NCBI GenBank assembly: GCA_963753055.1
Contig: CAVWAP010000004.1
Location: forward strand, 181,550 to 245,549
From: an uncultured Bacteroidales bacterium
Lineage (GTDB): Bacteria > Bacteroidota > Bacteroidia > Bacteroidales > B18-G4
DNA: 64,000 bases
Reading direction: 5' to 3'
Shown: one piece after another, positions 34,601 through 49,367 of the stretch
Layout of the letters: the number at the start of each line of letters is the position of its first letter
Position numbering within the stretch: position 1 is the first letter of the stretch
The notes under the pieces: model-generated
Told to the model about the DNA's origin: nothing
Databases searched by the model: none
The model's input: only the letters and a program-made list of their open reading frames with translations
Program-made: the position numbers and the translations under genes

Positions 34601-35594
34601 GCCATTTGAGGAAACATGGAGCTTAGGCAGCTTTGAATTAAACGAGTGGGATCATAGTGGTAATTGGATCATTAATAATCAATCAGGTAATCCACCTCCG
34701 TCGACTGAATTCTCATGGGAACCAATACTTACTAATTATAAATCATCATTGACAAGCCATCCGATCGATGGAGTAAACCTGCCTGCCCCATGGGTTGATG
34801 GTTGTATCTGGCTGGACTTTGACATCAAACTGATCGACCGGAATATGACCGGCCAGGAAAAACTGAGGGTGGAAATAGGAAATGACTTTGGCTGGTTTGA
34901 GGTGATGTCCTTTGATAATGCACAGGGGGGCTTTGATTGGCAACATAGCCATGTTGATATCAGTAGTATGGCGTTTGGAGAAATCTTCAGGGTCAGGTTT
35001 GTTGGTGAGGGAACAAACTCAATTGATATTCAATCATGGTTGATCGACAATATCCTGATCTATCGTGATTGTTCTCCTCCCAGGAACCTGAACCTGGAGA
35101 TCCAGAACTGCATCGATGTGTTATTGACCTGGGATGCTCCGTATGTTTGCGACAGCGCACGAAAGCTTGTGGAATATGATATATATGTCAATCTTGAATA
35201 TTATATGTCTACAACTGATACATTTTATATTTATACTGCAGGCCAGAATGGTACATATCGGTTCCAGCTATTTAGTGTATACGAAGACTGTGTTTCTGAT
35301 TCTTCAGTAAAAGGAACAATCGACGTGGTTTGCGTAGGAATAAATACCCCACAGGTAGATGATTGGGTGAATGTTTACCCCGTTCCAACATCGGAAACTC
35401 TTTATATTCAGGCAAAAGAAGAAATTAGGTATGTATCCCTTTTGAATAATATGGGTACAATAGTGTATTCTAATTATGGAAATGAGTCTAAAGAGCTGAA
35501 AGTCAATACAAAGACATTCATACCTGGATTTTATTTCCTAAAAATTGAAACTAAAACAAAAATATACAGTAAAAAGATTCTGGTCATTAGATAG
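28659..35594 (+). CDS. giant T9SS cargo protein, paralog 1 (2311 aa), multi-lectin/Ig surface protein of unknown function
   Basis: Uninterrupted ORF whose GTG start overlaps the ALDH stop (GTGA). Signal peptide 'ILFALAALCCLFLAGIVQAQ'. Modules in order: Cys-containing jelly-roll head; MAM/ConA-like head ('FIIDFEDGEMP...HVDDFEIWY'); three CarboxypepD_reg-like sandwiches ('VEGYVFNGNGIPIPDANVGLEG'); Ig/FN3-like units ('GEYCYTVQSSYDEGFSIPAGPEC'); a GEVED domain; choice-of-anchor-J/cleaved-adhesin-like domains ('EDFDGSQFLPSGWQ...WAVDNIVIAN'); one ~230-aa propeller-like module; CTD 35367-35591. Confidence 0.9.
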   Translation: MNYKPVILFALAALCCLFLAGIVQAQQPDGDGRAIGDDCTEPIQVNLTQDLPYLEYGQTTCGRGNSYDTTCLGSYDDGEDIIYQLNVSTEFEIQITMTPNDAWAAMGLFDDCPDVGNCMESVTYANVGYVIQAMTINTILSPGTYYLMMDSWPAPACFDFDLAINQVVPVDAYPFIIDFEDGEMPVEFVMLPGGDAGIRTDADAALNSDYGLLFEGNTQANWGPTPVNVNEAFDSTKVSHFGTINIEVVPTGEPGTLKMQFDLQQGYSYTPNYCWFRVMVDSIVIADENGFTYYQPFTHNDPFSSRTWDLGAYQSAPFTITLQSSCKYYENYYEQGDIVHVDDFEIWYELPPGKVEGYVFNGNGIPIPDANVGLEGSVTTSSGIDGFYLLEHVPFGMQEIYAWKQGYNMVSASVNVPSGGVANQDFILTQPTMIISPTLHYYTLNPFELYSTQTGIQNSGDGPLEWSAVINYPSGDTLDWLSLEWYEGVVPPDGGLENIPTHFNAANTTSGEVYTADIVFTSNPDVGTLTIPCEMVVLGDPLIPPAGLQVSLLNDVTGEVRVSWQASNRDFQYFIVKRDGALLASTINQFVIDYLPGYGEYCYTVQSSYDEGFSIPAGPECILWPNPQVFINPNHVEEWVWIDQQAVVSTNIINLGIGTLTYSFPDFTKDDKVLEYCPGSGGCDEFIQNVSIGNINNTTGCKNYSNFTNLSATVQRGVAYPISISVGNPVAEDILGIWVDWDQDEVWAQDEMIQTAGDPFSGFTAEIIPPDGSPAGYTRMRIRLQWGGVLDPCGTTAYGEVEDYSLYVLGGFITDVQPSSGIIAEGSSQVIMITYDASAYPEGDFSRQLLCETNDPSSPVSVIYNTMHVIVPAELVGNVKDGNTGVYLPGVSVTAGNWQAETDEHGHYSMYLDEGIYDITFQKLGYQTVIVEDTFVQQGEITPLDIQMFEEPYPVSFVLATVNEEDTECLVEWSLPYVPLELYYDDGEAEELVVWADPLNENAVKFTPLGYPMNLIGGRLNVGDGSFPAGNWLNSEFALLIYDDDGNDGMPGTLMDSMTVEVQNFEWIEFKGDTITFLDGDFYISMMQLNPSPNAPPLGVDFTSPVAYRSYSRLQGDDWILSPYQDFMIRAYVTGPATDDMPVELGVKKVPEKLPPGAEGRLYFTKNGLAPIIFPGLERETEFNLLNNTHSSNRDLVSYDLMRVSDFNPDLGPQTGVFTLIGDDINAIYYNDTAFGALPMGWFAYAVQANYTNGDTSEWIYSNIVGHLKEVRVDFQVTLTTGELPDEVEITMAGEDYPYSVYSGITDTNGLLFFNDVWKGTYTIHAYKVGYELYEISNENIQSDMSYSLTLGEKRYPALNFWVDPLTSMAYWDYPIVTAIREDFDGSQFLPSGWQIVSQGVGWFLTTDGSSPNWTVPAWDSRYACANDDKAGSANNGCCDYLVTPAVDLRESEEFSLMFDSYYDGAYGEIANVEFSNDGGNTWYILMALTPNPGGWEQIEIDLSSLSGPSGAYPVWFAFHADDDGEWASGWAVDNIVIANGLAGPIDFYMFLDGAFVNSTEQTYYQYPFLTYGITYEASVAAHYTSGLSEKVYYPFTSTYLTPPRNLRGETFDDAVQLWWQPPLEPDGVFVLLTEKTRTVHINPHDDYSPKVRTIKIMDNSIGSRDQWDVHYSYPTIYTDGETGAETDGDYLYTTQWNAGNGTFFKYDLDGTYLETFVIPDCRDLRDLAYDPDNSMMFGSNASDTVWKMDFIDQVLVETFFAPTEVRAIAFDSDEIGFWANNWDTDITLFDMTGSLISSFPIGTWGSYYGFAYDNWTDGGPYLWGFSQDGSGAILVQIDLNTGTEVTVLDVLPILGGSEIAGGLFTMCSMIYNNVVTIGGVLQNEMLFGLELGPCQGPPLHWHVPENLIGYKVYRDLDWVGSVPYYGEDTSTYYDTGLDPYTYEYDVSALYTLSTYGFPGEVGESMMEGPFYIQVQYGYPLPFEETWSLGSFELNEWDHSGNWIINNQSGNPPPSTEFSWEPILTNYKSSLTSHPIDGVNLPAPWVDGCIWLDFDIKLIDRNMTGQEKLRVEIGNDFGWFEVMSFDNAQGGFDWQHSHVDISSMAFGEIFRVRFVGEGTNSIDIQSWLIDNILIYRDCSPPRNLNLEIQNCIDVLLTWDAPYVCDSARKLVEYDIYVNLEYYMSTTDTFYIYTAGQNGTYRFQLFSVYEDCVSDSSVKGTIDVVCVGINTPQVDDWVNVYPVPTSETLYIQAKEEIRYVSLLNNMGTIVYSNYGNESKELKVNTKTFIPGFYFLKIETKTKIYSKKILVIR
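30681..31082 (+). other. GEVED domain in paralog 1 (slot 2)
   Basis: 'EYCPGSGGCDEFIQNVSIGNINNTTGC...TRMRIRLQWGGVLDPCGTTAYGEVEDYSLYV' ends with the literal GEVED signature. Confidence 0.75.
33651..34338 (+). other. ~230-aa uncharacterised propeller-like module (copy in paralog 1)
   Basis: 'RDQWDVHYSYPT..GETGAETDGDYLYTTQWNAGNGTFFKYDLDGTYL...LRDLAYDPDN..FGSNASDTVWKMDF...RAIAFDSDEIGFWANNWDTDITLFD...YGFAYDNWTDGGPYLWGFSQDGSG...IAGGLFT...GGVLQNEMLFGLEL'. Homologous copies are at 37635-38333, 41793-42486, 45871-46569, 50038-50730 and 58354-59046. Confidence 0.6.
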
Positions 35595-35969: not shown

Positions 35970-38900
35970 ATGAAACGATTTATTACTAAGCTTACGCTGT
36001 TGATGATTCCTTTCCTACTATCCTCAGCTATGCTCTTTGCACAAATGCAGTTGACTGGTCCTGGAGCTAAAGAATACTCCAATAACCAGGATGTAACTCG
36101 TATTTTGTATGAGCAAATGGACATTGGGGCCAGTGGCTGGGCTTCTCAGGATTTTGAAGCAGCTTACGACATCTACGACTGTCAGGGTGCAGACGACTTT
36201 ACTGTCCCTGCAGGAACTATCTGGCAAGTCGATGAGGTCACTGTTATTGGTTCAGGAGCCCCTGGACCATTTAATGTCGCCAACGTATATTTCTATCAGG
36301 ATGCAGGCGGATTGCCTGCTGCAGCACCTTACTTATCCTTTATGGGCTTAACAGCCGTGGATAATGCAGGTGCAATGACCATTGCTATTCCTGGTGGTGC
36401 TGTACTTACTGGCGGAGATTATTGGGTATCAGTACAGGACGCTGCTCCTTTTGGAGTCAACGGACAATGGTTCTGGACCAAGAATCTTACGCAGATTAAT
36501 AACATGGCCTATTGGCAAAACCCAGCAAATGGATTCGGTACAGGTGCTACAACCTGGACAGATGTCCTGACCGCTTTTGGTGAGGCAGCCGACTTCACGT
36601 TTTCACTTGTCGGTGAATCCTATGTAGAAATTGGTAACGGTACTGGCTATGGATCTTATCCAGCCTATTATAGTACCTGGTGCAATTATTGGGAAAATTG
36701 CCATACTCAAACATTATATCTGGCATCCGAATTGGGCGGACCAATGGATATCACAGAGTTGGGCTGGAAGTTCGAGAGACTTGCTACTCCCAACAACTGG
36801 CTATTGAATGTCCAGATTAACATTGTGGAAACCAGTGTTTCAGCTTTTACAGCAGGTTCTTATTTTGATATGACCGGGGCAACCCAGGTATATTCCAATG
36901 CAAACCTTATCCCTGCAACTGCCCTTGGCTGGAATAAAATTGACATTAATGATTTCGTCTATTCAGGGGTTAATAACCTCGTTATCGAAATCATTTGGGG
37001 TGACAACGGATATTATGAGTCTCCTTATTACAGGACCTATAAAACTAATGGTTCTGTCAATAGGACACTCCTTGGATATGCCGATTCAGAGACACCTCCA
37101 AACTATGATGCAGCAACTACCTGGTATGATGACCTCCGCGTATTTTTCAAACCATCTCTTGCTCCAGGCAACCTGGAAGGTTACGTGTTTAATGGAGATG
37201 GCCTTACAATTGCCGGAGCATCAGTAGGTATTGAAGGAGTAGGCGTGACTACTACCGGCCCTGCAGGTTTTTATGAGCTTCTTGATGTACCAACTGGTGA
37301 ATATGAAGCTTATGCCTGGAAAGACGGGTACAATGTCGTTACTGAAGATGTATTGATTATTTCAGGACAAACGACTATGCAAGACTTCATCCTGACTCAA
37401 CCGAACTGGTCTTTTAATCCATTAATACATGACTATACACTGAACCCGAATGAGTTCTTTTCAACTACACAGGGTATTCTGAATACTGGTGATGGTCCGG
37501 TTGATTGGTCAGCTGAAATTGTCTACCCACCTACAGATGTAATCATCGGTGATCCTGAGCCTCGTGCAACGATGCCGGATCCTCAAACAGATTACAGTCC
37601 TACAGTTACTACAGTACAGATAAATAATCCAATGAGGGATACCTGGGACCAGCAGTTTGGCTTCCTGACACAGGATAATAGTGGTGAAGCAGGTGCTGAA
37701 ACTGATGGTGCTTACTTCTATACTTCTAAATGGAATGCAGGCAGCGGTGTCTTCTTCAAGTATGAATTAGACGGTAACTTCCTGGGTTCATTTAATGTAT
37801 CCGGTGGAGCCATGGATCTCAGAGACATGGCTTACGTTGACTCAGAAGGCTTGTTCTACGGATCCAATGCCGGTACTACAGTATGGGCGATGGACTTCGA
37901 CGCTGGTGTAACTGATCATACTGTTCCTGCCGCAACAGCATGTAGAGCAATTGCATATAACGATGATGCCGATGGTTTCTACGGAAACAACTGGTCAACA
38001 GATATTACCCTTTTTGACCGTGAAACCGGAGCATTCATCAGCAGCTTCTCTACTGGTGGCTTAGCCAGTATGTACGGTATGGCCTATGACAACTGGTCAG
38101 ATGGTGGTCCATATGTATGGGCATTCGACCAGGGTGGCTCAGGTGGTGTATTCTACCAGTTTGATGCTACTACAGGTACACAGACAGGATTTACTTTTGA
38201 TGTTGTAGCAGCAACTGGCCAATCACAAATTGCCGGTGGTGCTTTTACACATCCAGGACTCGTTCCGGGATTTGTTACCATTGGTGGTATCCTGCAAAAC
38301 CTGTATTACTTTGGATTTGAGCTCGCTGAAGGCGGTGCTTCAATCGGCAGCTGGCTGACACTTGATTACTACAACGGAACTGTTCCTCCAAATGGAGGCA
38401 TTGATAATATCCCTACTCACTTCAACGCTGCCGGAACAGCAGCAGGTGAAGTTTATACTGCGGAGATCATATTTACCAGCGATCCTGATATTGGTACAGT
38501 GACTATTCCTTGTACCATGAGTATCCTTGGTAATGCACTTGTACCTCCGGAAAATCTTGAGGTTACACTTACTAATGATATTATCGGACTGGTTACCCTC
38601 ACATGGGATTGGTTTGGTGATGCATTCCAGTATTTCGTAGTTAAGAGAGATGGTATGATCATTGGCTCAACAACCCTGACCACTTTCACAGACTACTTGC
38701 CAGATTATGGCGAATACTGTTATACTGTTCAGGCACAATATGATGAAGGATTAACTTCACCAGCAGGCCCTGAATGTGTATTGTGGCCAAATCCAACGAT
38801 TTATATAGACCCAATGTTCCTTGAAGCATGGGTTTGGGTAGATCATACAACCCAGGTCTATACAACTATATATAATACGGGAATAGGAACATTAGCCTAT

Positions 38901-41900
38901 GAATTCCCGGATTACCTTAAAGATGCCTTTGATTGTGAGCATGAGATTGTAATGACTGACGACTTCGGTGATGGCTGGAATGGTGGATTCTTCGACCTCT
39001 ACCTGGATGGCGTTCTCACCATGTCAGGCGTAACGCTTGCCAGTGGTTCTGGCCCAGAGTCTGTATACTTTACAGCTACCGTAGGCCAGGAGATCACCAC
39101 TACCTGGACAGACGGAGGATGGCCTTACGAATGTGAATATCATGTATTCGACGGAGAAGGTACCGAGATTGGTTCAGATGGTGTCGGTGGGGCTTATCCT
39201 AACGGTATCCTGGCAGGAGAATGTTATGCTTTCTGTCCGGTACCAAGCTATATCGTAAATGTTGATCCAGCTTCAGGCGTTCTTGCTGAAGGTGGCAATC
39301 AACTCATCACAATTACTTATGATGCTACAGGCTTTGGTCCTGGAGATTATCCGGAAGACTTACAGGTTAATTCTAATGACCCGGATAACCCAGAAGTATA
39401 TATTGCCAATATGATGCACGTTTATACACCTGCTCAGTTTGCTGGTACTGTAACTGATGGCAGCACCGCACAACCTATTGTTGGTGTTACCGTTACAGCT
39501 GGACCATTCCAGGCAGTGACTGATGGCAGCGGTGAATACTCATTGTTTGTTGATGAAACAGCATATGATGTGTATTTCAACGTCCTTGGATACCAGGGAG
39601 TTATGGTTGCAGATACATTTGCTCAGGCAGGTGTCATTACACCAATTGATATTGTAATGTTTGAAGTACCATACCCTGTGCCATGGGTTACAGCTACAGT
39701 TAATGATGATGATACAGAATGTCTGGTTGAATGGGCATTGCCTGTTGGACCTTACGAGATCATCTATGACGACGGTAGCGCAGAAGAACTCGTTGTATGG
39801 GCTACTGGACTTAACCAGAACGCTGTTAAGTTTACTCCTTTAGGATATCCTGCTACTATTACTGGTGGTCGCCTGTTTATTGGTGACGGTAATTTCCCGG
39901 CAGCTAACTGGCTTGGATCAGACTTTGCCATGTTAGTATATGACGATGACGGCGCTAATGGCATGCCAGGCACCGTACTTGATTCAGTTCAGGTAGTCGT
40001 TAATAACTACGGGTGGTTAGAATTCTCATTAACTGGTATAGCTACCATTACTGATGGTGACTTCTACCTGTCAATGATGCAATTCTATCCTGCACCAAAT
40101 ACTGCTCCTTTAGGCGTTGACTTTGACACTCCAACATATTACAGGAGTTATTCTAAGATGGTTGGACTTGAGTGGATGAGCTCTGTATACCAGGATTTCA
40201 TGATCCGTGCATACGTTGATGGTCCAACTACAAGCGATGAAGAAGTAACTGAAGGTGCGACAATTCATCCACCGAAGCTTCCTGCTGATGCAGAAGGTAC
40301 TTACTTCTTCACACAGAACAGCTTAAGGCCATCAGGTATTCCAGGTGTTGAAAAAACTGGTATATACAAAAACCTTGCTGAAGCTAGCCGCGATGTAGTA
40401 TCTTACGATGTTGCCAGGATATCTGATTTTGATCCTGACATGGGACCAGAAACAGGTACAATGACAACAATCACAAATACTACTGAGCTTTCATATAATG
40501 ACATCGCTTGGGGCGGCCTGGCAGAAGGCTGGTATGCTTATGCTGTGAAAGCTTTTTATACCAATGGTGATGAATCAGAATGGGTATACTCAAATATAGT
40601 CGGACACCTATTGGATGTTGAAATAACATTCGAAGTGAGCTTGTCTACTGGCGCCGTTCCGGTTGATGTTGAAATTAGTATGGAAGGCGAGACTTATCCA
40701 AATGCAACTTATTTCGGTCTTACCGATACCAACGGAATACTAATATTCCCTGAGGTATGGAAAGGACAGTATGATATCAGTGCTTACAAGTTAGGTTTTG
40801 ACACGTACTATATTATGGATTACATGGCTATCGCAGATGATTATATCATCATTATCCTTGGAGAGAAGCGTTATCCGCCACGTAACCTTTGGGTAGATCC
40901 TTTGACTTCATGGGCATATTGGGAATGGCCAATTATAGATGCCTTATATGAAGACTTTGAAGGAACAGACTGGCCACCAACAGGCTGGCAGTCACTCAGT
41001 GCTGGCGAAGGCTGGTACCTGTCAACAGGCTATAGCGGAGCATGGGTAGTACCCACATGGGACTCACAATTTGCATTGTCTAATGACGATGGAGCCCCGT
41101 CAGGCAACAACGGAAGTGCTGACTATCTTGTCACACCAGGCTTAGACCTTCGTGAATCTGAAGACTTCAATATGATGTTCAATAGCTTCTATGACGGAGC
41201 CTACGGACAGTTAGCTACTGTTGAGTATTCATACGATGCTGGAGCTACCTGGGAAGTACTTTATGCAGTACCTCCAACACCAGGCGCCTTTGCAGATATT
41301 GAAATAGATCTTTCAGACTATTGCGGCGCAGGCTCAGCATATCCAATCTGGTTTGCTTTCCATAGCGATGACATTGGAGCATGGGCCTCAGGATGGGCCA
41401 TTGATAATGTTGAAATTGCCAATGGAGAAGCCAACCCGATCGATTTCTACGTCTTCCTGGATGGTGCCTTTGTATCTTCATCCGGTATCACCGAGTACCA
41501 GTATATGTGGCTGACTTACGGTGTTACTTATGAAGCCAGTGTAGCAGCACGCTATACTTCAGGCCTTTCAGAGAAGATTTACTATACCTTTGTATCTGAA
41601 TACCTTGTACCTCCACGTAACCTGGATGGCGAGACCTTCGACGATGCCGTGCACATTTGGTGGGAGCCACCACTGGAGCCGGAAGCCATGTTCGAACTGG
41701 TCAATGTTGTACCACGTACAGAGCGTCCAAACCAGTATTCAGACTACAGTCCAACTGTACGCACAGTTAAGGTAACTGGCAACAGCTCAACCCGTGATAT
41801 CTGGGATGTACAGTATAACTTCCCAACATTCTTCAACGGAGGAGAGGCCGGAACCGAATCAGACGGTGAATATATCTATACCACACAGTGGAACGCCGGT

Positions 41901-44369
41901 AACGGTACAATGTATCAGTATGCTACTGATGGTACCTATATTGGCTCCTTTGTAGTAAGTGGTGCAATGGATATAAGAGACCTTGCGTATAATGAGAACA
42001 CAGGCTATATGTACGGTTCCAACGCAGGCAACACTTGCTGGGAGATGGACTTCGCAGGAGGCACAACAATAAGTTCAATAGCAGCCCCAACAGCATGTAG
42101 GGCGATAGCTTATGACGACGGTGCCAACGGTTTCTGGGCAAACAACTGGGATACCCCGATTACGTTGTTTGACTATTCAGGAGCCACGTTGAATACCATC
42201 AACGTAGGTGCCTTTGGTAGCTTGTACGGATTGGCCTATGATCAATGGACAGACGGTGGACCATACCTGTGGGGCTTTAGCCAGGCAGGTGCAGGTGCCG
42301 AGCTGGTACAGTATGACATGAATACAGGAGCAGAGATTTTCAACCTGAACGTACTTCCACTTGTTGGAGGCACACAGATAGCAGGTGGACTTTATACTGC
42401 TTGTAACCTGGTCGTTCCGGGAACCGCCCTTATCGGTGGTAACCTGCAGAACGAGAAGGTCTTTGGACTGGAGTTAGCTGAATGTTCTGGCTTGCCAGGC
42501 CCCGGCGGCTTCGTAGTACCGGAGAACCTGTTAGGTTACAATGTATATCGTGATATGGAAAATATCGCTTACGTACCTTACGCTGGCGAAGACACAGCCA
42601 ACTATTATGACCTGGGTCTTGAGCCATTGACATACCAGTATGATGTAACAGCCCTTTACGACCTTGGTCGTTATGGCTTCCCGGGCGACACCGGCGAATC
42701 CATGTATGAAGGACCGTTCATTATCCAGGTACTTTATGGTTATCCATTACCATTCCAGGAGTACTGGGTGAGTGGAGGCTTTGATGTTAACCAGTGGACA
42801 CCAGGAGATAACTGGACAGTCAATGGCCAGATAGGTAATCCTGAGCCGGCAACTGAGTTCACCTGGGATCCAGTCCTGACAAACTATCGTTCAGCCCTGA
42901 GCAGCTTCCCATTGGATGGCGTAGGACTGATTGGAGATCCTTATATTGATGGTTGTATCTGGTTTGAATATGATGTTAAACTGGATGACCGTAATATGAC
43001 AGGAGCAGAATCACTGACCATTGAAGTAGGTAATGAAAACGGCTGGCATACGCTTGCCACTTACGACAATGCTGATGGTAGCTTCGATTGGACACATAGC
43101 ATCTTTGATATTACTGAGTGGTCGTTCGGACAGATCTTCCGTGTAAGATTTACTGCTGAAGGCGCCAGCTCTGCCGATATCCTGTCATGGTTTATCGACA
43201 ATATCGAAGTATACCTTGTATGTATGCCAGTAGAAGATCTGATGGTAGACGTACAGGCAGGCAGCGATGTTGAAGTACATCTAAGCTGGACATCACCATA
43301 CGCTTGTACAGCAGGCGGACCTGGTGGTGGCGAGTGGATCTTCTGGGATGATGGTACCAACACAGGCGGCATAGGACTCACAGGCGGTGGTGTATTTAGT
43401 GTAGCATCACACTGGGATCCGGATATGCTGACAGCTTATGACGGCATGGCCATCACCAAGATCAGGTTCATACCTTATGAAAATGCAGCGAATACTGTGA
43501 TCAACATGAAGGTTTGGGAAGGTACTAATGCTAGTACATTGCTGATTGATCAGGCTGTCACTTCATACATTGCAGGTGAATGGAACGAGATCGAACTGGC
43601 TTATCCTGTTTACATTGATGTAAGCAAGGAACTGTGGTTCGGTTATACCTGTGATTCACCTGATGGCGAGAACCCGGCAGGTTATGACGCTGGTCCTGCA
43701 ATAGCAGGTTATGGCGACATGATCACGTTGGATGGAGCCACCTGGGATCCGATCTCCAGCTTTGGTGCACAGTTTGACATTAACTGGAACCTGCAGGCAT
43801 GGGTAACCGTACCTACAGAGACTTCATCAGCACCAATGCCAATGGTTGACATCACGATTTATAACACACCAGACGCGGCTATTAATCAAGTTGCAGGCGA
43901 TAACGTAATTCCTGCACCTGTATATGAATCTCGCGAACTGCAAGGTTATAATATCTATAAGGACGGTGATTTCCTTGACTTCACAGCCGACACATTCTAT
44001 GTAGATTACATTCCTTACAGCAGCACGTTCCCAATGGATCTTTCGTACGACGTAACTGCTGTATATGAGGATTGTGAATCAGCACCGGAGAATGTACTGG
44101 TCGAAGTTACAGGCATTGAGGATATTCTTGCAGAGAATAACATTGCAGTCTATCCAAACCCTGCCCGTGACGTGTTGAATATCAAGTCAACTGATAATAT
44201 CACACATATCACGATGATGAACAACGTCGGACAGGTTGTCCTCAACAAGAAAGTTGCTGATGACAATGTTCTTGAGTTGAATGTAGAAAATTATGAACCA
44301 GGACTCTACATGATCAAGATCGAAACTGCTGACAACCTCGTTATCGAGAAAGTGTTGATAACCAGATAA
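35970..44369 (+). CDS. giant T9SS cargo protein, paralog 2 (2799 aa)
   Basis: Uninterrupted ORF with signal peptide 'LLMIPFLLSSAMLFAQ'. It has two head jelly-rolls unlike those of the other paralogs. After them comes the shared scaffold, carrying propeller-like modules at 37635-38333 and 41793-42486 and a 'DDFGDGWNGG' module at 38931-39236. It also has an extra C-terminal jelly-roll at 43323-43805 and a CTD at 44142-44366 ('IAVYPNPARDVLNIKS...PGLYMIKIETADNLVIEKVLITR'). Confidence 0.9.
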   Translation: MKRFITKLTLLMIPFLLSSAMLFAQMQLTGPGAKEYSNNQDVTRILYEQMDIGASGWASQDFEAAYDIYDCQGADDFTVPAGTIWQVDEVTVIGSGAPGPFNVANVYFYQDAGGLPAAAPYLSFMGLTAVDNAGAMTIAIPGGAVLTGGDYWVSVQDAAPFGVNGQWFWTKNLTQINNMAYWQNPANGFGTGATTWTDVLTAFGEAADFTFSLVGESYVEIGNGTGYGSYPAYYSTWCNYWENCHTQTLYLASELGGPMDITELGWKFERLATPNNWLLNVQINIVETSVSAFTAGSYFDMTGATQVYSNANLIPATALGWNKIDINDFVYSGVNNLVIEIIWGDNGYYESPYYRTYKTNGSVNRTLLGYADSETPPNYDAATTWYDDLRVFFKPSLAPGNLEGYVFNGDGLTIAGASVGIEGVGVTTTGPAGFYELLDVPTGEYEAYAWKDGYNVVTEDVLIISGQTTMQDFILTQPNWSFNPLIHDYTLNPNEFFSTTQGILNTGDGPVDWSAEIVYPPTDVIIGDPEPRATMPDPQTDYSPTVTTVQINNPMRDTWDQQFGFLTQDNSGEAGAETDGAYFYTSKWNAGSGVFFKYELDGNFLGSFNVSGGAMDLRDMAYVDSEGLFYGSNAGTTVWAMDFDAGVTDHTVPAATACRAIAYNDDADGFYGNNWSTDITLFDRETGAFISSFSTGGLASMYGMAYDNWSDGGPYVWAFDQGGSGGVFYQFDATTGTQTGFTFDVVAATGQSQIAGGAFTHPGLVPGFVTIGGILQNLYYFGFELAEGGASIGSWLTLDYYNGTVPPNGGIDNIPTHFNAAGTAAGEVYTAEIIFTSDPDIGTVTIPCTMSILGNALVPPENLEVTLTNDIIGLVTLTWDWFGDAFQYFVVKRDGMIIGSTTLTTFTDYLPDYGEYCYTVQAQYDEGLTSPAGPECVLWPNPTIYIDPMFLEAWVWVDHTTQVYTTIYNTGIGTLAYEFPDYLKDAFDCEHEIVMTDDFGDGWNGGFFDLYLDGVLTMSGVTLASGSGPESVYFTATVGQEITTTWTDGGWPYECEYHVFDGEGTEIGSDGVGGAYPNGILAGECYAFCPVPSYIVNVDPASGVLAEGGNQLITITYDATGFGPGDYPEDLQVNSNDPDNPEVYIANMMHVYTPAQFAGTVTDGSTAQPIVGVTVTAGPFQAVTDGSGEYSLFVDETAYDVYFNVLGYQGVMVADTFAQAGVITPIDIVMFEVPYPVPWVTATVNDDDTECLVEWALPVGPYEIIYDDGSAEELVVWATGLNQNAVKFTPLGYPATITGGRLFIGDGNFPAANWLGSDFAMLVYDDDGANGMPGTVLDSVQVVVNNYGWLEFSLTGIATITDGDFYLSMMQFYPAPNTAPLGVDFDTPTYYRSYSKMVGLEWMSSVYQDFMIRAYVDGPTTSDEEVTEGATIHPPKLPADAEGTYFFTQNSLRPSGIPGVEKTGIYKNLAEASRDVVSYDVARISDFDPDMGPETGTMTTITNTTELSYNDIAWGGLAEGWYAYAVKAFYTNGDESEWVYSNIVGHLLDVEITFEVSLSTGAVPVDVEISMEGETYPNATYFGLTDTNGILIFPEVWKGQYDISAYKLGFDTYYIMDYMAIADDYIIIILGEKRYPPRNLWVDPLTSWAYWEWPIIDALYEDFEGTDWPPTGWQSLSAGEGWYLSTGYSGAWVVPTWDSQFALSNDDGAPSGNNGSADYLVTPGLDLRESEDFNMMFNSFYDGAYGQLATVEYSYDAGATWEVLYAVPPTPGAFADIEIDLSDYCGAGSAYPIWFAFHSDDIGAWASGWAIDNVEIANGEANPIDFYVFLDGAFVSSSGITEYQYMWLTYGVTYEASVAARYTSGLSEKIYYTFVSEYLVPPRNLDGETFDDAVHIWWEPPLEPEAMFELVNVVPRTERPNQYSDYSPTVRTVKVTGNSSTRDIWDVQYNFPTFFNGGEAGTESDGEYIYTTQWNAGNGTMYQYATDGTYIGSFVVSGAMDIRDLAYNENTGYMYGSNAGNTCWEMDFAGGTTISSIAAPTACRAIAYDDGANGFWANNWDTPITLFDYSGATLNTINVGAFGSLYGLAYDQWTDGGPYLWGFSQAGAGAELVQYDMNTGAEIFNLNVLPLVGGTQIAGGLYTACNLVVPGTALIGGNLQNEKVFGLELAECSGLPGPGGFVVPENLLGYNVYRDMENIAYVPYAGEDTANYYDLGLEPLTYQYDVTALYDLGRYGFPGDTGESMYEGPFIIQVLYGYPLPFQEYWVSGGFDVNQWTPGDNWTVNGQIGNPEPATEFTWDPVLTNYRSALSSFPLDGVGLIGDPYIDGCIWFEYDVKLDDRNMTGAESLTIEVGNENGWHTLATYDNADGSFDWTHSIFDITEWSFGQIFRVRFTAEGASSADILSWFIDNIEVYLVCMPVEDLMVDVQAGSDVEVHLSWTSPYACTAGGPGGGEWIFWDDGTNTGGIGLTGGGVFSVASHWDPDMLTAYDGMAITKIRFIPYENAANTVINMKVWEGTNASTLLIDQAVTSYIAGEWNEIELAYPVYIDVSKELWFGYTCDSPDGENPAGYDAGPAIAGYGDMITLDGATWDPISSFGAQFDINWNLQAWVTVPTETSSAPMPMVDITIYNTPDAAINQVAGDNVIPAPVYESRELQGYNIYKDGDFLDFTADTFYVDYIPYSSTFPMDLSYDVTAVYEDCESAPENVLVEVTGIEDILAENNIAVYPNPARDVLNIKSTDNITHITMMNNVGQVVLNKKVADDNVLELNVENYEPGLYMIKIETADNLVIEKVLITR
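37635..38333 (+). other. propeller-like module, paralog 2 copy 1 (slot 1)
   Basis: 'RDTWDQQFGF...GEAGAETDGAYFYTSKWNAGSGVFFKYELDGNFL...LRDMAYVDSEGLFYGSNAGTTVWAMDF...RAIAYNDDADGFYGNNWSTDITLFD...YGMAYDNWSDGGPYVWAFDQGGSG...IAGGAFT...GGILQNLYYFGFEL'. Confidence 0.6.
38931..39236 (+). other. Cys-bounded ~100-aa 'DDFGDGWNGG' module (slot 2 of paralogs 2 and 3)
   Basis: 'DCEHEIVMTDDFGDGWNGGFFDLYLDG...WTDGGWPYECEYHVFDGEG...GECYAFC'. The paralog 3 copy is at 47167-47472. I cannot assign it to a named family from memory. Confidence 0.5.
41793..42486 (+). other. propeller-like module, paralog 2 copy 2
   Basis: 'RDIWDVQYNFPT..GEAGTESDGEYIYTTQWNAGNGTMYQYATDGTYI...IRDLAYNENTGYMYGSNAGNTCWEMDF...RAIAYDDGANGFWANNWDTPITLFD...YGLAYDQWTDGGPYLWGFSQAGAG...IAGGLYT...GGNLQNEKVFGLEL'. 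Confidence 0.6.
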
Positions 44370-44653: not shown

Positions 44654-45631
44654 ATGAAAAGTGTTACTAGAATCTGTATGGCATTAATTGTGTTGATGTT
44701 ATCAACATCAATGGTGTTTGCACAGAGCAATAACCTTGGGAAAAATGCAATTTCTCAAGAAGAATTATCCTTAATGAAGGAGCATGAGGGTTTGACGGTA
44801 CATCCTAATTATGCGGGACCATCTGACCAGCTGGGACCTGCAATTACCAGCTTCCCTTTCACCACTGGTTTTGAAAGTGGCATACCTCCGGAATTAGATG
44901 CACAACCCGGAACTTATGCTGATGTAAGGCAGGATGATAATGCTGCCTACACTGACACTTACGGGATGCTTTTTGAAGGATACAGCTCAACAGGTTGGGG
45001 CGCAACGCCTACTACCTACTCGGCAGCATTTGATCCTTCAAAATCCACTCACTTTGGAACAGTTTATATTAATGTGGTTCCAGACGGCACTTCCGGAACT
45101 TTGAAAATGACCTACTGGATGAGGCAGGGCTATTCATTTAGCACCAATTACAACTGGTTCAGGGTACTTGTCGAAGGCAACCTCACCGGTGATGAAGGTG
45201 GTGGCCCGGGATATTACCAGGCTGTTAGCCCCGTTAGCTACATGGGTCAATGGGTTGAATACACTTTCGACCTGAGCGCCTATGATGGAGCGCCATTTCA
45301 AATTATACTGCAATCATCCTGTAAATATTATGAACTCTATTATCAACAGGGTGATGTTGTTCATATCGATGATTTCAAGATCTGGTACATGGTGCCTCCG
45401 GGCGATGTGGAAGGATATGTATTTAATGGTGATGGTCTTAGCATTGCCGGAGCAACCATTGGTGTTGAGGGTGGTGCCATGACAACTTCAAGTCCATCAG
45501 GCTATTATTTCTTGCCTACTGTTGATGGTGGCAACCAGCCAATGTATGCTATCAAAGGATGGATACAACACGATTACGGATATTGTATATGTCACACCAT
45601 CTGGGATTGGTACAAAAAGATTGGGTACTGA
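44654..45631 (+). pseudogene. paralog 3 fragment 1/6 (signal peptide, MAM-like head, start of CarboxypepD_reg)
   Basis: 325-aa ORF. Homology ends at 'PMYAIKG'. The expected continuation 'DGYNTITDIVYVTPSGIGT' is in another frame. Confidence 0.75.
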
Positions 45632-46005
45632 CTCAGCCTAACTGGACTTTTAATCCTTTAATACATGATTATACGCTGAACCCGAATGAGTTCTTTTCAA
45701 CTACACAGGGTATTCAGAATACTGGTGATGGTCCGGTGAATTGGACTTCAACCATAGTTTATCCTCCTACCGATGTAGCTATTGGAGCTCCGGAGCCAAG
45801 GAAAACAATGCCGGATCCACAAACGGATTACAGTCCTATGGTTACTACAGTTACTGTAACCAACCCCATGAGGGATACCTGGGACCAGCAGTTTGGCTTC
45901 GCAACACAGGATAATAGTGGTGAAGCAGGTGCTGAAACTGATGGTGCTTACTTCTATACTTCTAAATGGAATGCAGGCAGCGGGCCATCTTCAAGTATGA
46001 ATTAG
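45559..46005 (+). pseudogene. paralog 3 fragment 2/6 (Ig-like half, start of propeller-like module 1)
   Basis: 148-aa ORF. Homologous from 'VLTQPNWTFNPLIHDYTLNPNEFF' to 'YFYTSKWNAGSG', then an out-of-frame patch 'PSSSMN*'. Confidence 0.75.
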
Positions 46006-46047
46006 ACGGTAACTATCCTGGGTTCATTTAATGTATCCGGTGGTGCC

Positions 46048-47790
46048 ATGGATGTCAGAGACCTGGCCTATGTTGATTCAGAAGGCTTGTTCTACGGATC
46101 CAATGCCGGTACTACAGTATGGGCGATGGACTTCGACGCTGGTGTAACTGATCATACGGTTCCTGCCGCAACAGCGTGTAGGGCGATTGCTTATGATGTC
46201 GACGAGGATGGTTTCTACGGAAACAACTGGTCAACAGACATTACACTCTTCGACCGTGAAACCGGAGCATTCATCAACAGCTTCTCTACTGGTGGCTTAG
46301 CCAGTATGTACGGTATGGCCTATGACAACTGGTCAGATGGAGGCCCATATGTATGGGCATTTGACCAGGGTGGCTCAGGTGGTGTATTCTACCAGTTTGA
46401 AGTTGCTACAGGTACACAGACAGGCATTACTTTTGATGTTGTAGCAGCAACTGGCCAGGCACAAATTGCCGGTGGTGCTTTTACACATCCAGGACTCGTT
46501 CCGGGATTTGTTACCATTGGTGGTATCCTGCAAAACCTGTATTACTTTGGATTTGAGCTCGCTGAAGGCGGTGCTTCAATCGGCAGCTGGCTGTCATGTG
46601 ATTATTATGAAGGAACTGTTCCTCCATTAGGAGGTATTGATAATATTCCTACTCACTTCAATGCTGCCGGAACAGCAGCAGGTGAAGTTTATACAGCTGA
46701 ACTGATATTTACCAGTGATCCTGACATAGGTACAGTGACTATTCCTTGTACCATGAGTATCCTTGGTGACGCACTTGTACCTCCGGAAAATCTTGAGGTT
46801 ACCCTTGATAATGATCTTATCGGTCTGGTTACCCTGACATGGGATTGGTTTGGTGATGCATTCCAGTATTTTGTAGTTAAGAGAGATGGTATGATCATTG
46901 GCTCAACAACCATGACCACTTTCACAGACTACTTGCCAGATTATGGTGAGTACTGTTATACTGTGCAGGCCCAATATGATGAAGGATTAACTTCACCCGC
47001 AGGCCCTGAATGTATATTGTGGCCTAATCCTAACATTGTGATTAACCCTATGTTCCTTGAAGCATGGGTTTGGGTAGATCATACTACACAAGTATATACA
47101 ACAATCTCCAACACAGGAATTGGTACGCTTGCATACGAATTCCCGGATTATGTAACAGATGACTTTGATTGCGAGCATGAGATCGTGATGACTGACGACT
47201 TCGGTGATGGCTGGAATGGAGGTTTCTTTGACCTTTACCTGGACGGCTCTCTCATAATGTCAGGCGTAACACTCGCCAGTGGTTCAGGCCCTGAATCAGT
47301 TTACTTCATGGCTCTTGCAGGCCAGGAGATCACTACTACATGGACAGACGGTGGATGGGCTTATGAGTGCGAATATCATGTATTCGACGGATTAGGTAAC
47401 GAGATTGGTGCAGATGGTGTCGGTGGCGCCTATCCAAATGGTATCCTACCTGGTGAATGTTATGCATTCTGCCCGGTACCAAGCTATATTACTATCGTTG
47501 ATCCTCCTTCAGGAACACTTGGAGAAGGTGAATCACAGCTGATCACAATCACTTATGATGCAACAGGATTCTTCCCTGGAGACTTCCCGGAGAAACTGGC
47601 CATTGCATCTAATGACCCGGATACCCCAGCTGATTCAATTGATAACCTGATGCATGTCTATACACCTGGCAGCATTCGCAGGTACCGTTTTAGACGGAAA
47701 TACGGCCATGCCTATCACTGGTGTTACAGTAACTGCTGGTACGTTCCAGACTGTTACCGACGGAAGCGGCGAATATGTATTATATGTTGA
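46048..47790 (+). pseudogene. paralog 3 fragment 3/6 (propeller-like module 1, Ig/FN3 units, GDGWNG module)
   Basis: 580-aa ORF in the same frame as fragment 2. Homology is lost after 'NLMHVYTPG'. Confidence 0.75.
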
Positions 47791-49045
47791 TGAAGGCACA
47801 TATGATGTATACTTCACATCATTGGCTTATCAAAGCGTTATGGTTGCTGATACTTTTGCGCTTGCCGGTATTATGACACCAATTGATGTAGAAATGTTCG
47901 AACAGCCATATCCGGTGCCATGGGTTACAGCTACAGTAAATGCTGATGATACAGAATGCCTTGTTGAATGGGCACTTCCTGTCGGACCATACGAGATCAT
48001 CTATGAAGATGGTAGCGCAGAAGAACTGTTTGTATGGGCTACAGGCCTTAATGAGAATGCAGTTAAGTTTACTCCATTAGGTTATCCTGCCACAATTATC
48101 GGTGGTCGCCTGTTTGTTGGTGACGGTACATTCCCGGCAGCTAACTGGCTTGGATCAGACTTTGCCATGCTGGTATATGACGATGATGGTCAGGATGGCA
48201 TGCCAGGTACCGTACTTGACTCAGTTCAGGTAGTCGTCAATAACTACGGCTGGTTAGAATTCTGGACAAATGGTACAGCTACCATTACAGATGGTGACTT
48301 CTACCTGTCCATGTTGCAGTTCTATCCTGCACCTAACACTGCACCACTTGGTGTTGATCTGGAAACTCCGACAGCCAACAGGAGTTATTCTAAGATGGCT
48401 GGAATTGAATGGGCGCTATCCGTGTACCAGGATTTCATGATCCGTGCATACGTTGCTGGTCCTTCAACCAGTGATATAGCTGATGGAACAACAATGTTGT
48501 GTCCACCTAAGGCTCCTGTCGGTGCGGATGGAACAGTCTTCTTTACGCAGAATGGTAGCAGGCAATCATCACTACCTGGTTACGAAAAAGCTGGTGAGTA
48601 TAAGAGTGTTGAACATGCTGCTTCAGCCAACCGTGATGTGGTTTCTTATGACGTTGCCAGGGTATCTGATTTTGATCCTAACATGGGACCGGAATTCGGT
48701 ACAATGACGACAATTACAAATACTACTGAAGTTTCATATAATGACATCGCCTGGGGCGGTCTGCCGCAAGGATATTATGCATATGCGGTGAAAGCTATAT
48801 ACCAGAATGGTGATGAATCTGACTGGGTATATTCCAATATCGTTGGACACCTTGAATTCGTAACTGTCGACTTTGAAATTACCCTGTCAACAGGTGCACT
48901 GCCAGAAGGGGTGGAAGTTGTAATGGTAGGTGAAGAATGGCCCTATAGCGTGTATGCTGATGTAACCGATACCACCGGCCTTCTGACATTTGAGGAGGTA
49001 TGGAAGGGTATCTATAATATCACTGCTTTCAAAGCAGGCATATGA
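47654..49045 (+). pseudogene. paralog 3 fragment 4/6 (CarboxypepD_reg units, jelly-roll, FN3-like)
   Basis: 463-aa ORF. Homologous from 'FAGTVLDGNTAMPITGVTVTAG' to 'WKGIYNITAFKAG'. Confidence 0.75.
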
Positions 49046-49367
49046 CATATATGAGATTCCAAATGAGAACATACAGACCGACAGGAGCTTTGTCATTATC
49101 CTGGGCGAGAAGCGTTATCCGCCACGCAACCTGTGGGTAGATCCGCTGACCTCCTGGGCATACTGGGAATGGCCTATCGTTGAAGCCCTGGCGGAAGATT
49201 TTGAAGGTACGCAATGGCCTCCTCCATACTGGCAATCACTTACTGATGGCGAAGGCTGGTTCCTGACAACAGCAGGCAGCAGCGCAAGCTGGACGATACC
49301 TACATGGGATTCACAATATGTAGTATCTAATGATGATGCGAATTCAGGCAACAACGGATGCTGCTGA
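48990..49367 (+). pseudogene. paralog 3 fragment 5/6 (start of choice-of-anchor-J-like domain)
   Basis: 125-aa ORF. Homologous from 'YDIYEIPNENIQTDRSFVIILGEKRYP' to 'SNDDANSGNNG'. Confidence 0.7.

What the first reader, a model, noticed from the sequence alone, without database searches (positions are those of the whole stretch)
38919..39250. Domain-swap slot 2: three unrelated modules (GEVED, 'GDGWNGG', NIDO-like) occupy the same scaffold position
The upstream anchor 'N.GIGTL.Y.FP(D/E)(F/Y)' and the downstream anchor '(I/F).(D/N/I)V(Q/D)P.(S/A)G..(A/G)EG.(S/N).(Q/A).I.ITYD(A/S)' are shared by all paralogs.

Between them:
- Paralog 1 has a GEVED domain (about 30661-31090).
- Paralogs 2 and 3 have a ~100-aa Cys-bounded 'DDFGDGWNGG' module (38931-39236; 47167-47472).
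- Paralog 4 has a ~220-aa NIDO-like module (55120-55786).

GEVED appears in slot 2 of paralog 1 but in slot 1 of paralog 4, so the same cassette type has moved between slots.
Basis: partly seen in the sequence, partly recalled or inferred. Interest (0 to 1): 0.7.

Follow-up and report, generated by a model that had tools for sequence, protein, structure and literature searches.

The report
Swappable domains nested in Ig loop
Four neighbouring giant secreted surface-protein genes of an uncultured sediment Bacteroidales bacterium share one scaffold, and a single loop of one immunoglobulin-like domain in it holds a different, unrelated globular module in different copies, one of them a widespread ~100-residue domain that no curated database describes.

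Summary
The two anchors occur once in each of four tandem paralogs, with 145, 112, 112 and 243 residues between them. These are a GEVED module, a 'GDGWNGG' module (twice) and a NIDO-like module.

The anchors are not the ends of two separate domains. They are the two halves of one HYDIN/PapD-like Ig domain:
- Deleting the insert in silico gives a continuous Pfam match above threshold.
- Natural relatives exist with an empty 8-17-residue loop.
- The AlphaFold2 model superposes on solved PapD-like domains.
So slot 2 is a loop that hosts nested domains.

The three inserts show no profile-level homology (hhalign probability below 0.5%). Each also occurs on its own in other proteins.

In 40 related loci, nearly all from Bacteroidales genomes assembled from metagenomes (MAGs), the loop holds GDGWNGG (17), GEVED (10), NIDO-like (7), a fourth unassigned module (2) or nothing (4).

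The slot-1 GEVED of paralog 4 nests inside the clade of slot-2 GEVEDs, so that module type did move between slots.

The GDGWNGG module has at least 1,298 cluster representatives, no Pfam or NCBIfam model, and no close solved structure.

Function is inferred, not shown: alternative ligand-binding heads on a common adhesin-like stalk secreted by the type IX secretion system (T9SS). This is a new variant of known phenomena, namely nested domain insertion and adhesin domain shuffling.

The parts
28659..35594 (+). Paralog 1: intact 2311-aa gene ending in a T9SS C-terminal sorting domain (35373-35585)
   Evidence: ORF list. Por_Secre_tail 38.5 bits, above the cut-off of 27.
30522..30659 (+). p1 slot 2: N-terminal half of the host Ig-like domain, ending in the upstream anchor NLGIGTLTYSFPDF
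   Evidence: Spliced to the C-terminal half it matches PF22544 at 28.3 bits, above the cut-off of 25.5.
30660..31094 (+). p1 slot-2 insert: 145-aa GEVED-containing module (Pfam GEVED core 30861-31076)
   Evidence: PF20009, E 4.5e-18, 66.3 bits.
31095..31274 (+). p1 slot 2: C-terminal half of the host Ig-like domain (downstream anchor)
   Evidence: PF22544 profile positions 50-92.
35970..44369 (+). Paralog 2: intact 2799-aa gene; T9SS C-terminal sorting domain at 44148-44360
38778..38915 (+). p2 slot 2: N-terminal half of the host Ig-like domain (model strands 8-11, 14-20, 24-33, 39-42)
38916..39251 (+). p2 slot-2 insert (the finding): 112-aa GDGWNGG module, a seven-strand all-beta domain bounded by conserved Cys 7 and Cys 107
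   Evidence: No Pfam, NCBIfam or PDB sequence match. 1,298 relatives. Model pLDDT 91.5. Terminal Cys conserved in 93-94% of copies. DNA and RNA contigs span both junctions.
39252..39431 (+). p2 slot 2: C-terminal half of the host Ig-like domain (model strands 159-216)
44654..52608 (+). Paralog 3: same architecture as p2 but split into four ORFs by single-base shifts
   Evidence: Short-read contigs lack the extra bases at five of these sites.
47152..47487 (+). p3 slot-2 insert: GDGWNGG module, 88% amino-acid identity to the p2 copy; host Ig halves at 47014-47151 and 47488-47667
   Evidence: RNA contigs lie on 47320-47546.
52962..60930 (+). Paralog 4: two overlapping ORFs (52962-53834 and 53701-60930) with one frameshift near 53790; T9SS C-terminal sorting domain at 60709-60921
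54064..54507 (+). p4 slot-1 insert: GEVED module (Pfam core 54268-54483) nested in a second, upstream Ig-like domain
   Evidence: PF20009, 70.3 bits. Flanks. Tree.
54934..55071 (+). p4 slot 2: N-terminal half of the host Ig-like domain
   Evidence: the spliced domain scores 34.7 bits against PF22544.
55072..55800 (+). p4 slot-2 insert: 243-aa NIDO-like module
   Evidence: NIDO 20.4 bits, below the cut-off of 25. 71 homologs, 27 of them with a precomputed PF06119 hit. Relatives score 25-38 bits.
55801..55980 (+). p4 slot 2: C-terminal half of the host Ig-like domain
   Evidence: Weak choice_anch_D hit over query residues 249-334.

Best explanation
Slot 2 is the loop between the fourth and fifth beta-strands of a HYDIN/PapD-like Ig domain. 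That domain lies in the stalk of a family of giant (about 2,300-2,900 aa) surface or secreted proteins exported by the type IX secretion system (T9SS) in uncultured Bacteroidales.

Self-contained globular modules are nested in this loop, so the host Ig domain is split in sequence but whole in structure. The GDGWNGG module has a conserved Cys at its first and last position. This suggests a disulfide that ties its ends together at the base of the loop (inferred, not shown).

In this genome the four tandem paralogs carry GEVED, GDGWNGG (twice) and a NIDO-like module. Across the family the same loop also holds a fourth, unassigned 250-aa module, or nothing.

The occupants are unrelated, independently folding domain families that also occur alone or in other architectures. 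Module types have been copied between positions: GEVED between slot 2 and slot 1, and GDGWNGG among three positions. Tandem paralogs recombine, so their 3' two-thirds are kept 95-100% identical in blocks while the 5' third, which holds the slots, stays different.

Inferred function: the inserts are alternative ligand-binding heads on a common stalk, giving the cell a repertoire of adhesion or substrate-capture specificities. No binding activity has been shown.
For: Host domain is a single Ig:
- Removing the insert in silico turns the flanks into one continuous PF22544 match above the gathering score (28.3, 31.2 and 34.7 bits against 25.5; profile positions 13-95 cross the junction).
- With the insert present, only profile positions 50-95 match.
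- Natural relatives L032, L039, L040 and L041 have an 8-17-aa loop there and match the same profile contiguously.
- The AlphaFold2 model of the p2 region (pLDDT 89.2) has four strands, then a seven-strand module, then five strands.
- Foldseek aligns the whole model to solved PapD-like domains: HYDIN 2e6j (target-normalised TM-score 0.72), CEP192 6fvi (0.59) and OCRL 3qbt (0.63). The alignments span 216-222 columns against targets of 112-142 residues. That needs both halves packed together.

Inserts are unrelated and autonomous:
- hhalign probabilities are 0.1-0.4% for all three pairs.
- The GDGWNGG module occurs after a signal peptide, followed by an IPTL-CTERM motif, in P0005 and P0008. It occurs in 1 to at least 6 tandem copies per protein elsewhere.
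- The NIDO-like module stands alone in the small T9SS proteins P0019 and P0022.
- Terminal Cys 7 and Cys 107 are conserved in 94% and 93% of 232 module copies.

The slot is family-wide: 40 readable loci from about 30 genomes assembled from metagenomes (MAGs) hold GDGWNGG 17, GEVED 10, NIDO-like 7, empty 4 and a fourth type 2.

Movement and recombination:
- The p4 slot-1 GEVED is 79% identical to the P0230 slot-2 GEVED and 48% to the p1 slot-2 GEVED, and it nests in the slot-2 clade.
- Insert types are interleaved on the scaffold tree.
- The blastn match between p2 and p4 (86% over 5.1 kb) begins exactly at the downstream anchor. p3 is a mosaic, p2-like at the 5' end and p4-like at the 3' end.

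Real and expressed: DNA and metatranscriptome contigs span both junctions.

Extracellular context: Por_Secre_tail is present in all paralogs. Partners of the module are fn3, Por_Secre_tail, MAM, lectins and CHU_C. GEVED was defined in fibrillar adhesins (PMC10952558).
Against: - No binding or adhesion function has been tested for any of the modules. Neither the GDGWNGG module nor NIDO has a known activity.
- Foldseek finds only weak resemblance of the module to carbohydrate-binding modules (CBMs), lectins and C2 folds (best E 0.069, TM-score at most 0.46).
A shared fold among the three inserts is therefore excluded only at profile level.
- The trees are neighbour-joining on short alignments, without bootstrap. 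Gene conversion of the scaffolds within a genome could by itself produce the interleaving of insert types, with no insert ever being exchanged.
- Slot-2 GDGWNGG copies are monophyletic. This points to one old insertion and not to repeated capture.
- The disulfide and the closeness of the module's ends are inferred from conservation. They were not measured on model coordinates.
Confidence: 0.8

Rival explanations
1. Linear beads-on-a-string shuffling. On this reading the upstream anchor is the end of one complete domain and the downstream anchor is the start of another. The variable module is then an ordinary interchangeable domain between two neighbours, not an insertion inside a domain.
For: In the intact proteins Pfam sees only a partial Ig hit after the insert (18.5-20.7 bits, below the cut-off) and nothing before it. 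The architecture therefore looks linear at first sight. In some relatives a GDGWNGG module does sit in a linear position, before the first CarboxypepD_reg domain.
Against: - The spliced flanks give a continuous, above-threshold PF22544 match across the junction.
- Natural relatives have an empty loop at this position.
- The AlphaFold2 model with Foldseek gives a target-normalised TM-score of 0.72 to a 112-residue PapD-like domain. Neither half (about 46 and about 60 residues) could reach that alone.
Confidence: 0.05
2. Divergence and not replacement. On this reading the three inserts are highly diverged versions of one ancestral inserted domain with a common fold.
For: All three are extracellular and probably beta-rich. 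GEVED and GDGWNGG are both about 100-135 aa with Cys near both ends. Only one of the three was modelled.
Against: - hhalign probabilities are 0.1-0.4%.
- The lengths are 112, 145 and 243 aa.
- GEVED and NIDO are separate Pfam families.
- Each module occurs independently of this scaffold in other architectures and other phyla.
- A fourth module and an empty state also exist.
Confidence: 0.05
3. No exchange at all. On this reading each insert type entered the loop once, long ago, and paralog lineages carrying each type have been inherited vertically. The apparent swaps on the scaffold tree come only from gene conversion homogenising the scaffolds within each genome.
For: - Slot-2 GDGWNGG copies form one clade, and its internal order roughly follows the scaffold tree.
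- Paralogs within one genome cluster together whatever insert they carry (window p2, p3 and p4; CAWGKX loci L007, L002 and L019).
- Long blocks of 95-100% identity show that gene conversion is active.
Against: - This reading still requires at least four independent insertions into the same loop.
- It still requires relocation of GEVED between slots.
- NIDO-type and GDGWNGG-type scaffolds each appear in about four separate places on the scaffold tree.
- In outcome it differs from the best explanation only in which segment was copied, so it is a variant of it and not a true alternative.
Confidence: 0.3
4. A programmed variation system. On this reading the slot is the target of a dedicated mechanism, such as a site-specific recombinase, a shufflon, a diversity-generating retroelement or phase variation, that exchanges cassettes on short time scales.
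For: The genes are tandem paralogs of surface proteins with sharp changes of identity at the slot. p3 and p4 carry frameshifts, one of them at an A5 run.
Against: - No recombinase or reverse transcriptase is found among the neighbours scanned, 13.5-27 kb.
- There are no flanking direct or inverted repeats at the insert boundaries.
- Nucleotide identity at the anchors is only 50-65% between different insert types.
- Contigs from several runs show a single arrangement with no alternative joints.
- The p3 frameshifts look like consensus errors.
Confidence: 0.03

Closest known systems
Nested (inserted) domains in multidomain proteins, for example the integrin alpha I-domain inserted in a beta-propeller loop or the PA domain inserted in subtilases (general knowledge, not tested here)
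   Same: A host domain is discontinuous in sequence but intact in fold, with a complete guest domain whose two ends meet in a surface loop.
   Different: Here the same loop of one host Ig domain holds at least four unrelated guests, or none, among close paralogs and orthologs. A second Ig domain (slot 1) behaves the same way.
Domain shuffling in bacterial fibrillar adhesins: CshA-type NR2/GEVED proteins (Barringer et al. 2023, PMC10952558)
   Same: GEVED is one of the modules. The proteins are extracellular, repetitive and stalk-like with variable putative binding domains. Mosaic architectures are generated by shuffling.
   Different: Those adhesins are linear arrays anchored by LPXTG and similar signals, and GEVED lies between a binding head and the stalk. 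Here GEVED is nested inside an Ig loop of a Bacteroidales T9SS protein.
HYDIN/CFA65/VesB-like Ig domain (PF22544), NCBIfam 'choice-of-anchor D', and the PapD-like/ASH domains
   Same: The host domain matches this family by sequence once it is spliced, and by predicted fold.
   Different: Curated models describe an uninterrupted domain of about 100 aa. In this family it is usually interrupted by 100-250 aa, so the intact proteins fall below the family threshold.
NIDO (nidogen-like) domain, PF06119
   Same: Relatives of the p4 insert pass the Pfam threshold (25-38 bits).
   Different: Only the first third of the NIDO profile aligns (positions 2-67 of 186). The p4 copy itself scores below the cut-off. 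The members are bacterial, are often nested in the same Ig loop in several phyla, and their function is unknown.
Small beta-sandwich carbohydrate-binding modules and lectins (CBM35, CBM25, the C-terminal domain of EclA)
   Same: The GDGWNGG model is a seven-strand beta domain of about 100 aa with conserved Trp, Asp, Asn and Glu. These are its nearest solved folds.
   Different: The matches are not significant (E at least 0.069, TM-score at most 0.46). No sugar-binding or metal-binding site has been demonstrated.

Membership tests
HYDIN/CFA65/VesB-like Ig domain (PF22544), the host of slot 2 | A continuous match to the family profile at or above the gathering score (25.5 bits) | tested here: met
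   The insert-deleted p1, p2 and p4 sequences score 28.3, 31.2 and 34.7 bits over profile positions 13-95. The intact proteins reach only 18.5-20.7 bits, over the C-terminal half.
HYDIN/CFA65/VesB-like Ig domain (PF22544), the host of slot 2 | PapD-like beta-sandwich fold | tested here: met
   AlphaFold2 model, pLDDT 89.2. Foldseek target-normalised TM-scores: 0.72 to 2e6j, 0.63 to 3qbt and 0.59 to 6fvi, all with probability 1.00.
Nested domain insertion | The host domain is intact without the guest, and relatives with an empty loop exist | tested here: met
   L032, L039, L040 and L041 have 8-17 aa between the anchors. They match PF22544 contiguously at 21.4-22.5 bits, which is just below the cut-off.
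Nested domain insertion | The guest is an autonomous domain that is found outside the host | tested here: met
   GDGWNGG stands alone in P0005 and P0008 and occurs in tandem arrays elsewhere. The NIDO-like module stands alone in P0019 and P0022. GEVED is an established Pfam domain.
GEVED (PF20009) | Profile match above 24.4 bits, and the GEVED motif | tested here: met
   The p1 insert scores 66.3 bits and contains YGEVEDY. The p4 slot-1 copy scores 70.3 bits and contains GEAEDY.
NIDO (PF06119) | Profile match at or above 25 bits over the domain | tested here: inconclusive
   The p4 insert scores 20.4 bits over profile positions 2-58 of 186. Nine of ten relatives scanned reach the cut-off (25-38 bits), but only over about positions 1-67. 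27 of 71 homologs carry a precomputed PF06119 hit.
Any curated family for the GDGWNGG module (Pfam-A 2025 copy, NCBIfam 20.0) | A profile match covering the module | tested here: not met
   No hit at E up to 10 for the module alone. No NCBIfam hit. No family covers the module in 10 and then 68 relatives scanned. No paper in the library contains the string GDGWNG.
Carbohydrate-binding module or lectin fold (for the GDGWNGG module) | Significant structural similarity to a solved CBM or lectin | tested here: not met
   Best PDB hit has E 0.069 and none is below 0.001. EclA, CBM35 and CBM25 give TM-scores of at most 0.46. Only uncharacterised metagenomic 'viral' proteins match well (E 1.4e-6, TM-score 0.66-0.75).
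T9SS cargo protein | C-terminal Por_Secre_tail sorting domain | tested here: met
   38.5, 46.5 and 48.7 bits against a cut-off of 27 in p1, p2 and p4. The p3 C-terminus ends in the same sequence as those of p2 and p4.
T9SS cargo protein | N-terminal Sec signal peptide and actual export | not tested
   Hydrophobic N-termini can be seen by eye in the translations. No predictor was run and there is no experiment.
Programmed cassette-switching systems (shufflon, invertase, diversity-generating retroelement) | A nearby recombinase or reverse transcriptase, and repeats at the cassette borders | tested here: not met
   Neighbours at 13.5-27 kb are housekeeping genes or other T9SS cargo. No border repeats were found. 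No alternative joints appear in the contigs.

The most novel reading that the evidence does not exclude
Two readings remain open.

1. The GDGWNGG module may be a new, widespread family of extracellular ligand-binding domains, for example a carbohydrate-binding or metal-dependent binding domain, clamped by a terminal disulfide that suits it to loop insertion.

2. The C-C' loops of PapD-like Ig domains in these giant T9SS proteins may act as general docking sites. Bacteroidales would then reassort binding heads among tandem paralogs by gene conversion. That would be a natural 'loop-display' scaffold used to diversify adhesion or substrate capture in sediments.
Probability: 0.25. Interest if true: 0.65.

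Novelty: new variant of a known kind. Interest (0 to 1): 0.5.

Why it matters
- It shows a concrete, well-populated natural example in which one loop of an Ig-like domain tolerates at least four unrelated guest domains, or none, among close relatives. That is useful for understanding how giant bacterial surface proteins diversify. It is also a possible natural template for engineering domain insertions.
- It explains why curated Ig-domain models miss these proteins: the domain is split.
- It flags an uncatalogued domain of about 100 residues, with at least 1,298 cluster representatives at 50% identity, that deserves a family definition and a binding assay.
- The genes are transcribed in sediment metatranscriptomes, so the proteins are likely to matter for how these uncultured Bacteroidales interact with particles or polymers.

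Tried and rejected
- Sequence searches of the PDB with the GDGWNGG, NIDO-like and GEVED inserts gave only chance-level hits.
- Pfam and NCBIfam gave nothing for the GDGWNGG module or for the fourth 250-aa module.
- Foldseek on the two-domain model returned only matches to the Ig host. The module had to be modelled alone, and it then had no significant PDB neighbour.
- Literature searches for 'GDGWNG', and for domain insertion in Ig-like domains of T9SS proteins, found nothing. The search for 'NIDO domain' with bacteria returned mainly animal and other unrelated papers.
- The cluster look-up of ten module-bearing proteins gave no organism names or informative protein names.
- A search for direct or inverted repeats at the insert borders found only short chance-level matches.
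- BLASTP between the slot-1 and slot-2 host domains was marginal (E 0.098). The statement that slot 1 is the equivalent loop rests on the motif pattern alone.
- The read check of the p4 frameshift had no coverage at the site.
- I considered and rejected misassembly, a linear architecture, divergence of one fold and a programmed switching system (see the rival explanations).
Full report
WHAT IS THERE

The window carries four tandem + strand paralogs of a giant protein:
- p1, 28659-35594, 2311 aa.
- p2, 35970-44369, 2799 aa.
- p3, 44654-52608, split into four ORFs.
- p4, 52962-60930, with one frameshift.

All of them end in a C-terminal sorting domain for the type IX secretion system (T9SS), scoring 38.5-48.7 bits against Por_Secre_tail where the cut-off is 27. 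They also contain CarboxypepD_reg domains and other beta-rich domains. The neighbouring genes are housekeeping genes (SerRS, L21, KsgA) and other T9SS cargo. No recombinase or reverse transcriptase is present among them.

CHECKING THE OBSERVATION

A six-frame regex scan finds the upstream anchor exactly four times and the downstream anchor exactly four times, one pair in each paralog.

Between the anchors lie 145 aa (p1, 30660-31094), 112 aa (p2, 38916-39251), 112 aa (p3, 47152-47487) and 243 aa (p4, 55072-55800).

- The p1 insert is a GEVED module (PF20009, 66.3 bits).
- p4 carries a GEVED module in an upstream position, slot 1 (70.3 bits).
- The p2 and p3 inserts have no Pfam, NCBIfam or PDB sequence match.
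- The p4 insert reaches only 20.4 bits against NIDO, below the cut-off of 25. However, 27 of its 71 homologs carry a NIDO hit. Of the ten relatives I rescanned, nine reach the cut-off at 25-38 bits, always over only the first third of the NIDO profile. 'NIDO-like' is therefore the right description.

Short-read DNA contigs and sediment metatranscriptome contigs span both junctions of the p2 insert without any break. The arrangement is real and it is transcribed.

WHAT THE SLOT IS

In the intact proteins Pfam sees only the second half (profile positions 50-95) of a HYDIN/CFA65/VesB-like Ig domain, immediately after the insert.

When I removed the insert in silico, the flanks of p1, p2 and p4 became one continuous match to that family, above the gathering score: 28.3, 31.2 and 34.7 bits against 25.5, with profile positions 13-95 running across the junction.

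Natural controls exist. In four related loci (L032, L039, L040, L041) only 8-17 residues separate the anchors, and the uninterrupted domain matches the same profile contiguously, just below the cut-off.

An AlphaFold2 model of the 218-aa p2 region (pLDDT 89.2) has four strands, then a seven-strand module, then five strands. Foldseek aligns the whole model to solved PapD-like domains, with the insert gapped out. The target-normalised TM-scores are 0.72 for HYDIN 2e6j, 0.63 for OCRL 3qbt and 0.59 for CEP192 6fvi. Neither half alone (about 46 and about 60 residues) could give 0.72 on a 112-residue target, so the two halves pack into one sandwich.

Slot 2 is therefore the loop between the fourth and fifth strands of an Ig-like domain, and the modules are nested domains.

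ARE THE MODULES UNRELATED?

Profile-profile comparison of alignments of the three families (232 GDGWNGG copies, 62 NIDO-like copies, 5 GEVED copies) gives probabilities of 0.1-0.4% for every pair.

Each module is autonomous:
- The GDGWNGG module stands alone between a signal peptide and an IPTL-CTERM motif in P0005 and P0008. Elsewhere it forms arrays of one to at least six copies per protein, counting full-length copies.
- The NIDO-like module follows the signal peptide directly in small T9SS proteins such as P0019 and P0022.

THE GDGWNGG MODULE

An exhaustive HMMER search found 1,298 cluster representatives at E up to 0.001, and 450 at E up to 1e-10.

Its conserved positions, numbered within the module, are C7, D15, G18-D19-G20-W21-N22-G23, T40, G44, G67, E72, Y75 and C107. 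The first and last Cys are present in 94% and 93% of the 232 copies. That pattern suggests a disulfide clamp tying the two ends together, which would suit the module to insertion in a loop. This is an inference.

Modelled alone, the module has pLDDT 91.5 and pTM 0.84. It has no significant neighbour in the PDB: the best hit has E 0.069, and the weak matches are to CBM35, CBM25, the EclA lectin, CARDB and C2 sandwiches with TM-scores of at most 0.46. Only uncharacterised metagenomic proteins in the BFVD library of predicted viral protein structures share the fold.

Among 68 module-bearing proteins the partner domains are Por_Secre_tail (21 proteins), fn3 (17), CHU_C, IPTL-CTERM, MAM, lectins and dockerin. 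No Pfam family covers the module itself. No paper in the library contains the motif.

THE SLOT ACROSS THE FAMILY

A scan of representative genomes with the conserved upstream scaffold returned 44 loci. Nearly all come from uncultured Bacteroidales genomes assembled from metagenomes (MAGs), and the genes are often in tandem.

In the 40 loci where slot 2 can be read, the content is:
- GDGWNGG in 17 loci, with two more partial.
- GEVED in 10.
- NIDO-like in 7.
- An empty loop in 4.
- A fourth 250-aa module with no Pfam match in 2. This module is also present in P0231 and P0235.

The NIDO-like module is also nested in the equivalent loop of HYDIN-like or 'choice-of-anchor D' Ig domains in proteins of other phyla. 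The GDGWNGG module occupies slot 1 in some relatives (P0003, L005, L006, L012, L020) and a third, linear position in others.

MOVEMENT AND RECOMBINATION

The p4 slot-1 GEVED is 79% and 73% identical to the slot-2 GEVEDs of P0230 and P0237, but only 48% identical to the slot-2 GEVED of p1. By comparison, the p4 and P0230 scaffolds are 68% identical. In a neighbour-joining tree the two slot-1 GEVEDs (p4 and L039) group together inside the slot-2 clade. So GEVED was relocated between slots within this family and was not captured twice from outside.

Slot-2 GDGWNGG copies form one clade, separate from the upstream copies. That insertion is old.

On the scaffold tree the insert types are interleaved in the crown group, and paralogs of one genome cluster together whatever insert they carry. 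Either exchange of inserts or conversion of scaffolds could produce this pattern.

At the DNA level:
- The blastn match between p2 and p4 (86% over 5.1 kb) begins exactly at the downstream anchor.
- p2, p3 and p4 are 95-100% identical in blocks over about 3 kb at the 3' end.
- p3 is p2-like upstream and through the insert, and p4-like in several 3' blocks.
- The Ig half immediately after the slot is the most divergent scaffold segment downstream of the slot (58-72%).

There are no repeats at the insert borders. Ordinary homologous recombination among tandem copies is therefore the likely mechanism.

FUNCTION

Function is inferred. The proteins have T9SS sorting domains, no recognised catalytic domain, and a long chain of beta-sandwich domains. 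GEVED was defined in fibrillar adhesins (PMC10952558). The other modules occur only in secreted or surface architectures.

The most likely role is to display alternative binding heads on a common stalk, giving a repertoire of adhesion or substrate-capture specificities. No activity is known for the GDGWNGG or NIDO-like modules.

VERDICT

- The slot is a loop of a split Ig domain.
- The 'swaps' are mostly ancient alternative occupancies maintained in recombining tandem paralogs.

This is a new variant of known phenomena, nested domain insertion and adhesin domain shuffling. It also yields a domain family that is uncatalogued in the libraries tested here.

Noticed in passing
window 44654-52608 (p3); sites near 45551, 45603, 46015, 47673, 49040, 49361: p3 is split into four ORFs by single-base shifts relative to p2. 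Short-read contigs from three runs lack the extra base at five of these sites. The shifts are therefore probably consensus errors in a repeated region, or are specific to this strain, and do not mark a dead gene.
   Followed up: partly
window 53780-53800 (p4): p4 has one frameshift inside its first CarboxypepD_reg-like domain, which splits it into 52962-53834 and 53701-60930. No public contig covers the site, so it is undecided whether the shift is real.
   Followed up: partly
window 30078-30095 (p1), 37530-38351 (p2), 54064-54507 (p4): A second slot (slot 1) lies in an upstream Ig-like domain. It is empty in p1 (6 aa), holds a 274-aa insert in p2 and p3, and holds GEVED in p4. Part of the p2 insert is a diverged copy (about 65% nucleotide identity) of a domain in the constant 3' part (p2 41959-42297; p4 58520-58858).
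   Followed up: partly
window about 41200-44369, 49440-52608, 57750-60930: The 3' 3 kb of p2, p3 and p4 are 95-100% identical in blocks, interrupted by patches of 77-90%. This is the pattern of concerted evolution by gene conversion among tandem paralogs.
   Followed up: yes
L007 and L012 (slot 2); P0231, P0235: A fourth slot-2 occupant: a module of about 250 aa (motif VLLVAADDG...VVVTWSNYNY...GRVINLMFA) with no Pfam match.
   Followed up: partly
L004, L006, L011, L019, L028 (about aa 200-330 of each protein): A GDGWNGG module sits at a third, apparently linear position, just before the first CarboxypepD_reg domain. These copies form their own clade, separate from the slot-1 and slot-2 copies.
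   Followed up: partly
P0013, P0028, P0038, P0046 (homologs from other phyla): The NIDO-like module is nested in the same loop of HYDIN-like or 'choice-of-anchor D' Ig domains in otherwise unrelated proteins. They are attributed to Planctomycetaceae, Zixibacteria, Marinimicrobia and Acidobacteria MAGs. The Ig+NIDO composite is therefore widespread.
   Followed up: partly
window 13576-16116 (+), 16102-17793 (-), 25953-27083 (+): Three further T9SS cargo genes lie next to the paralog array: a Sortilin/BNR-repeat protein, a pectate-lyase-like protein and a protein of unknown function.
   Followed up: no
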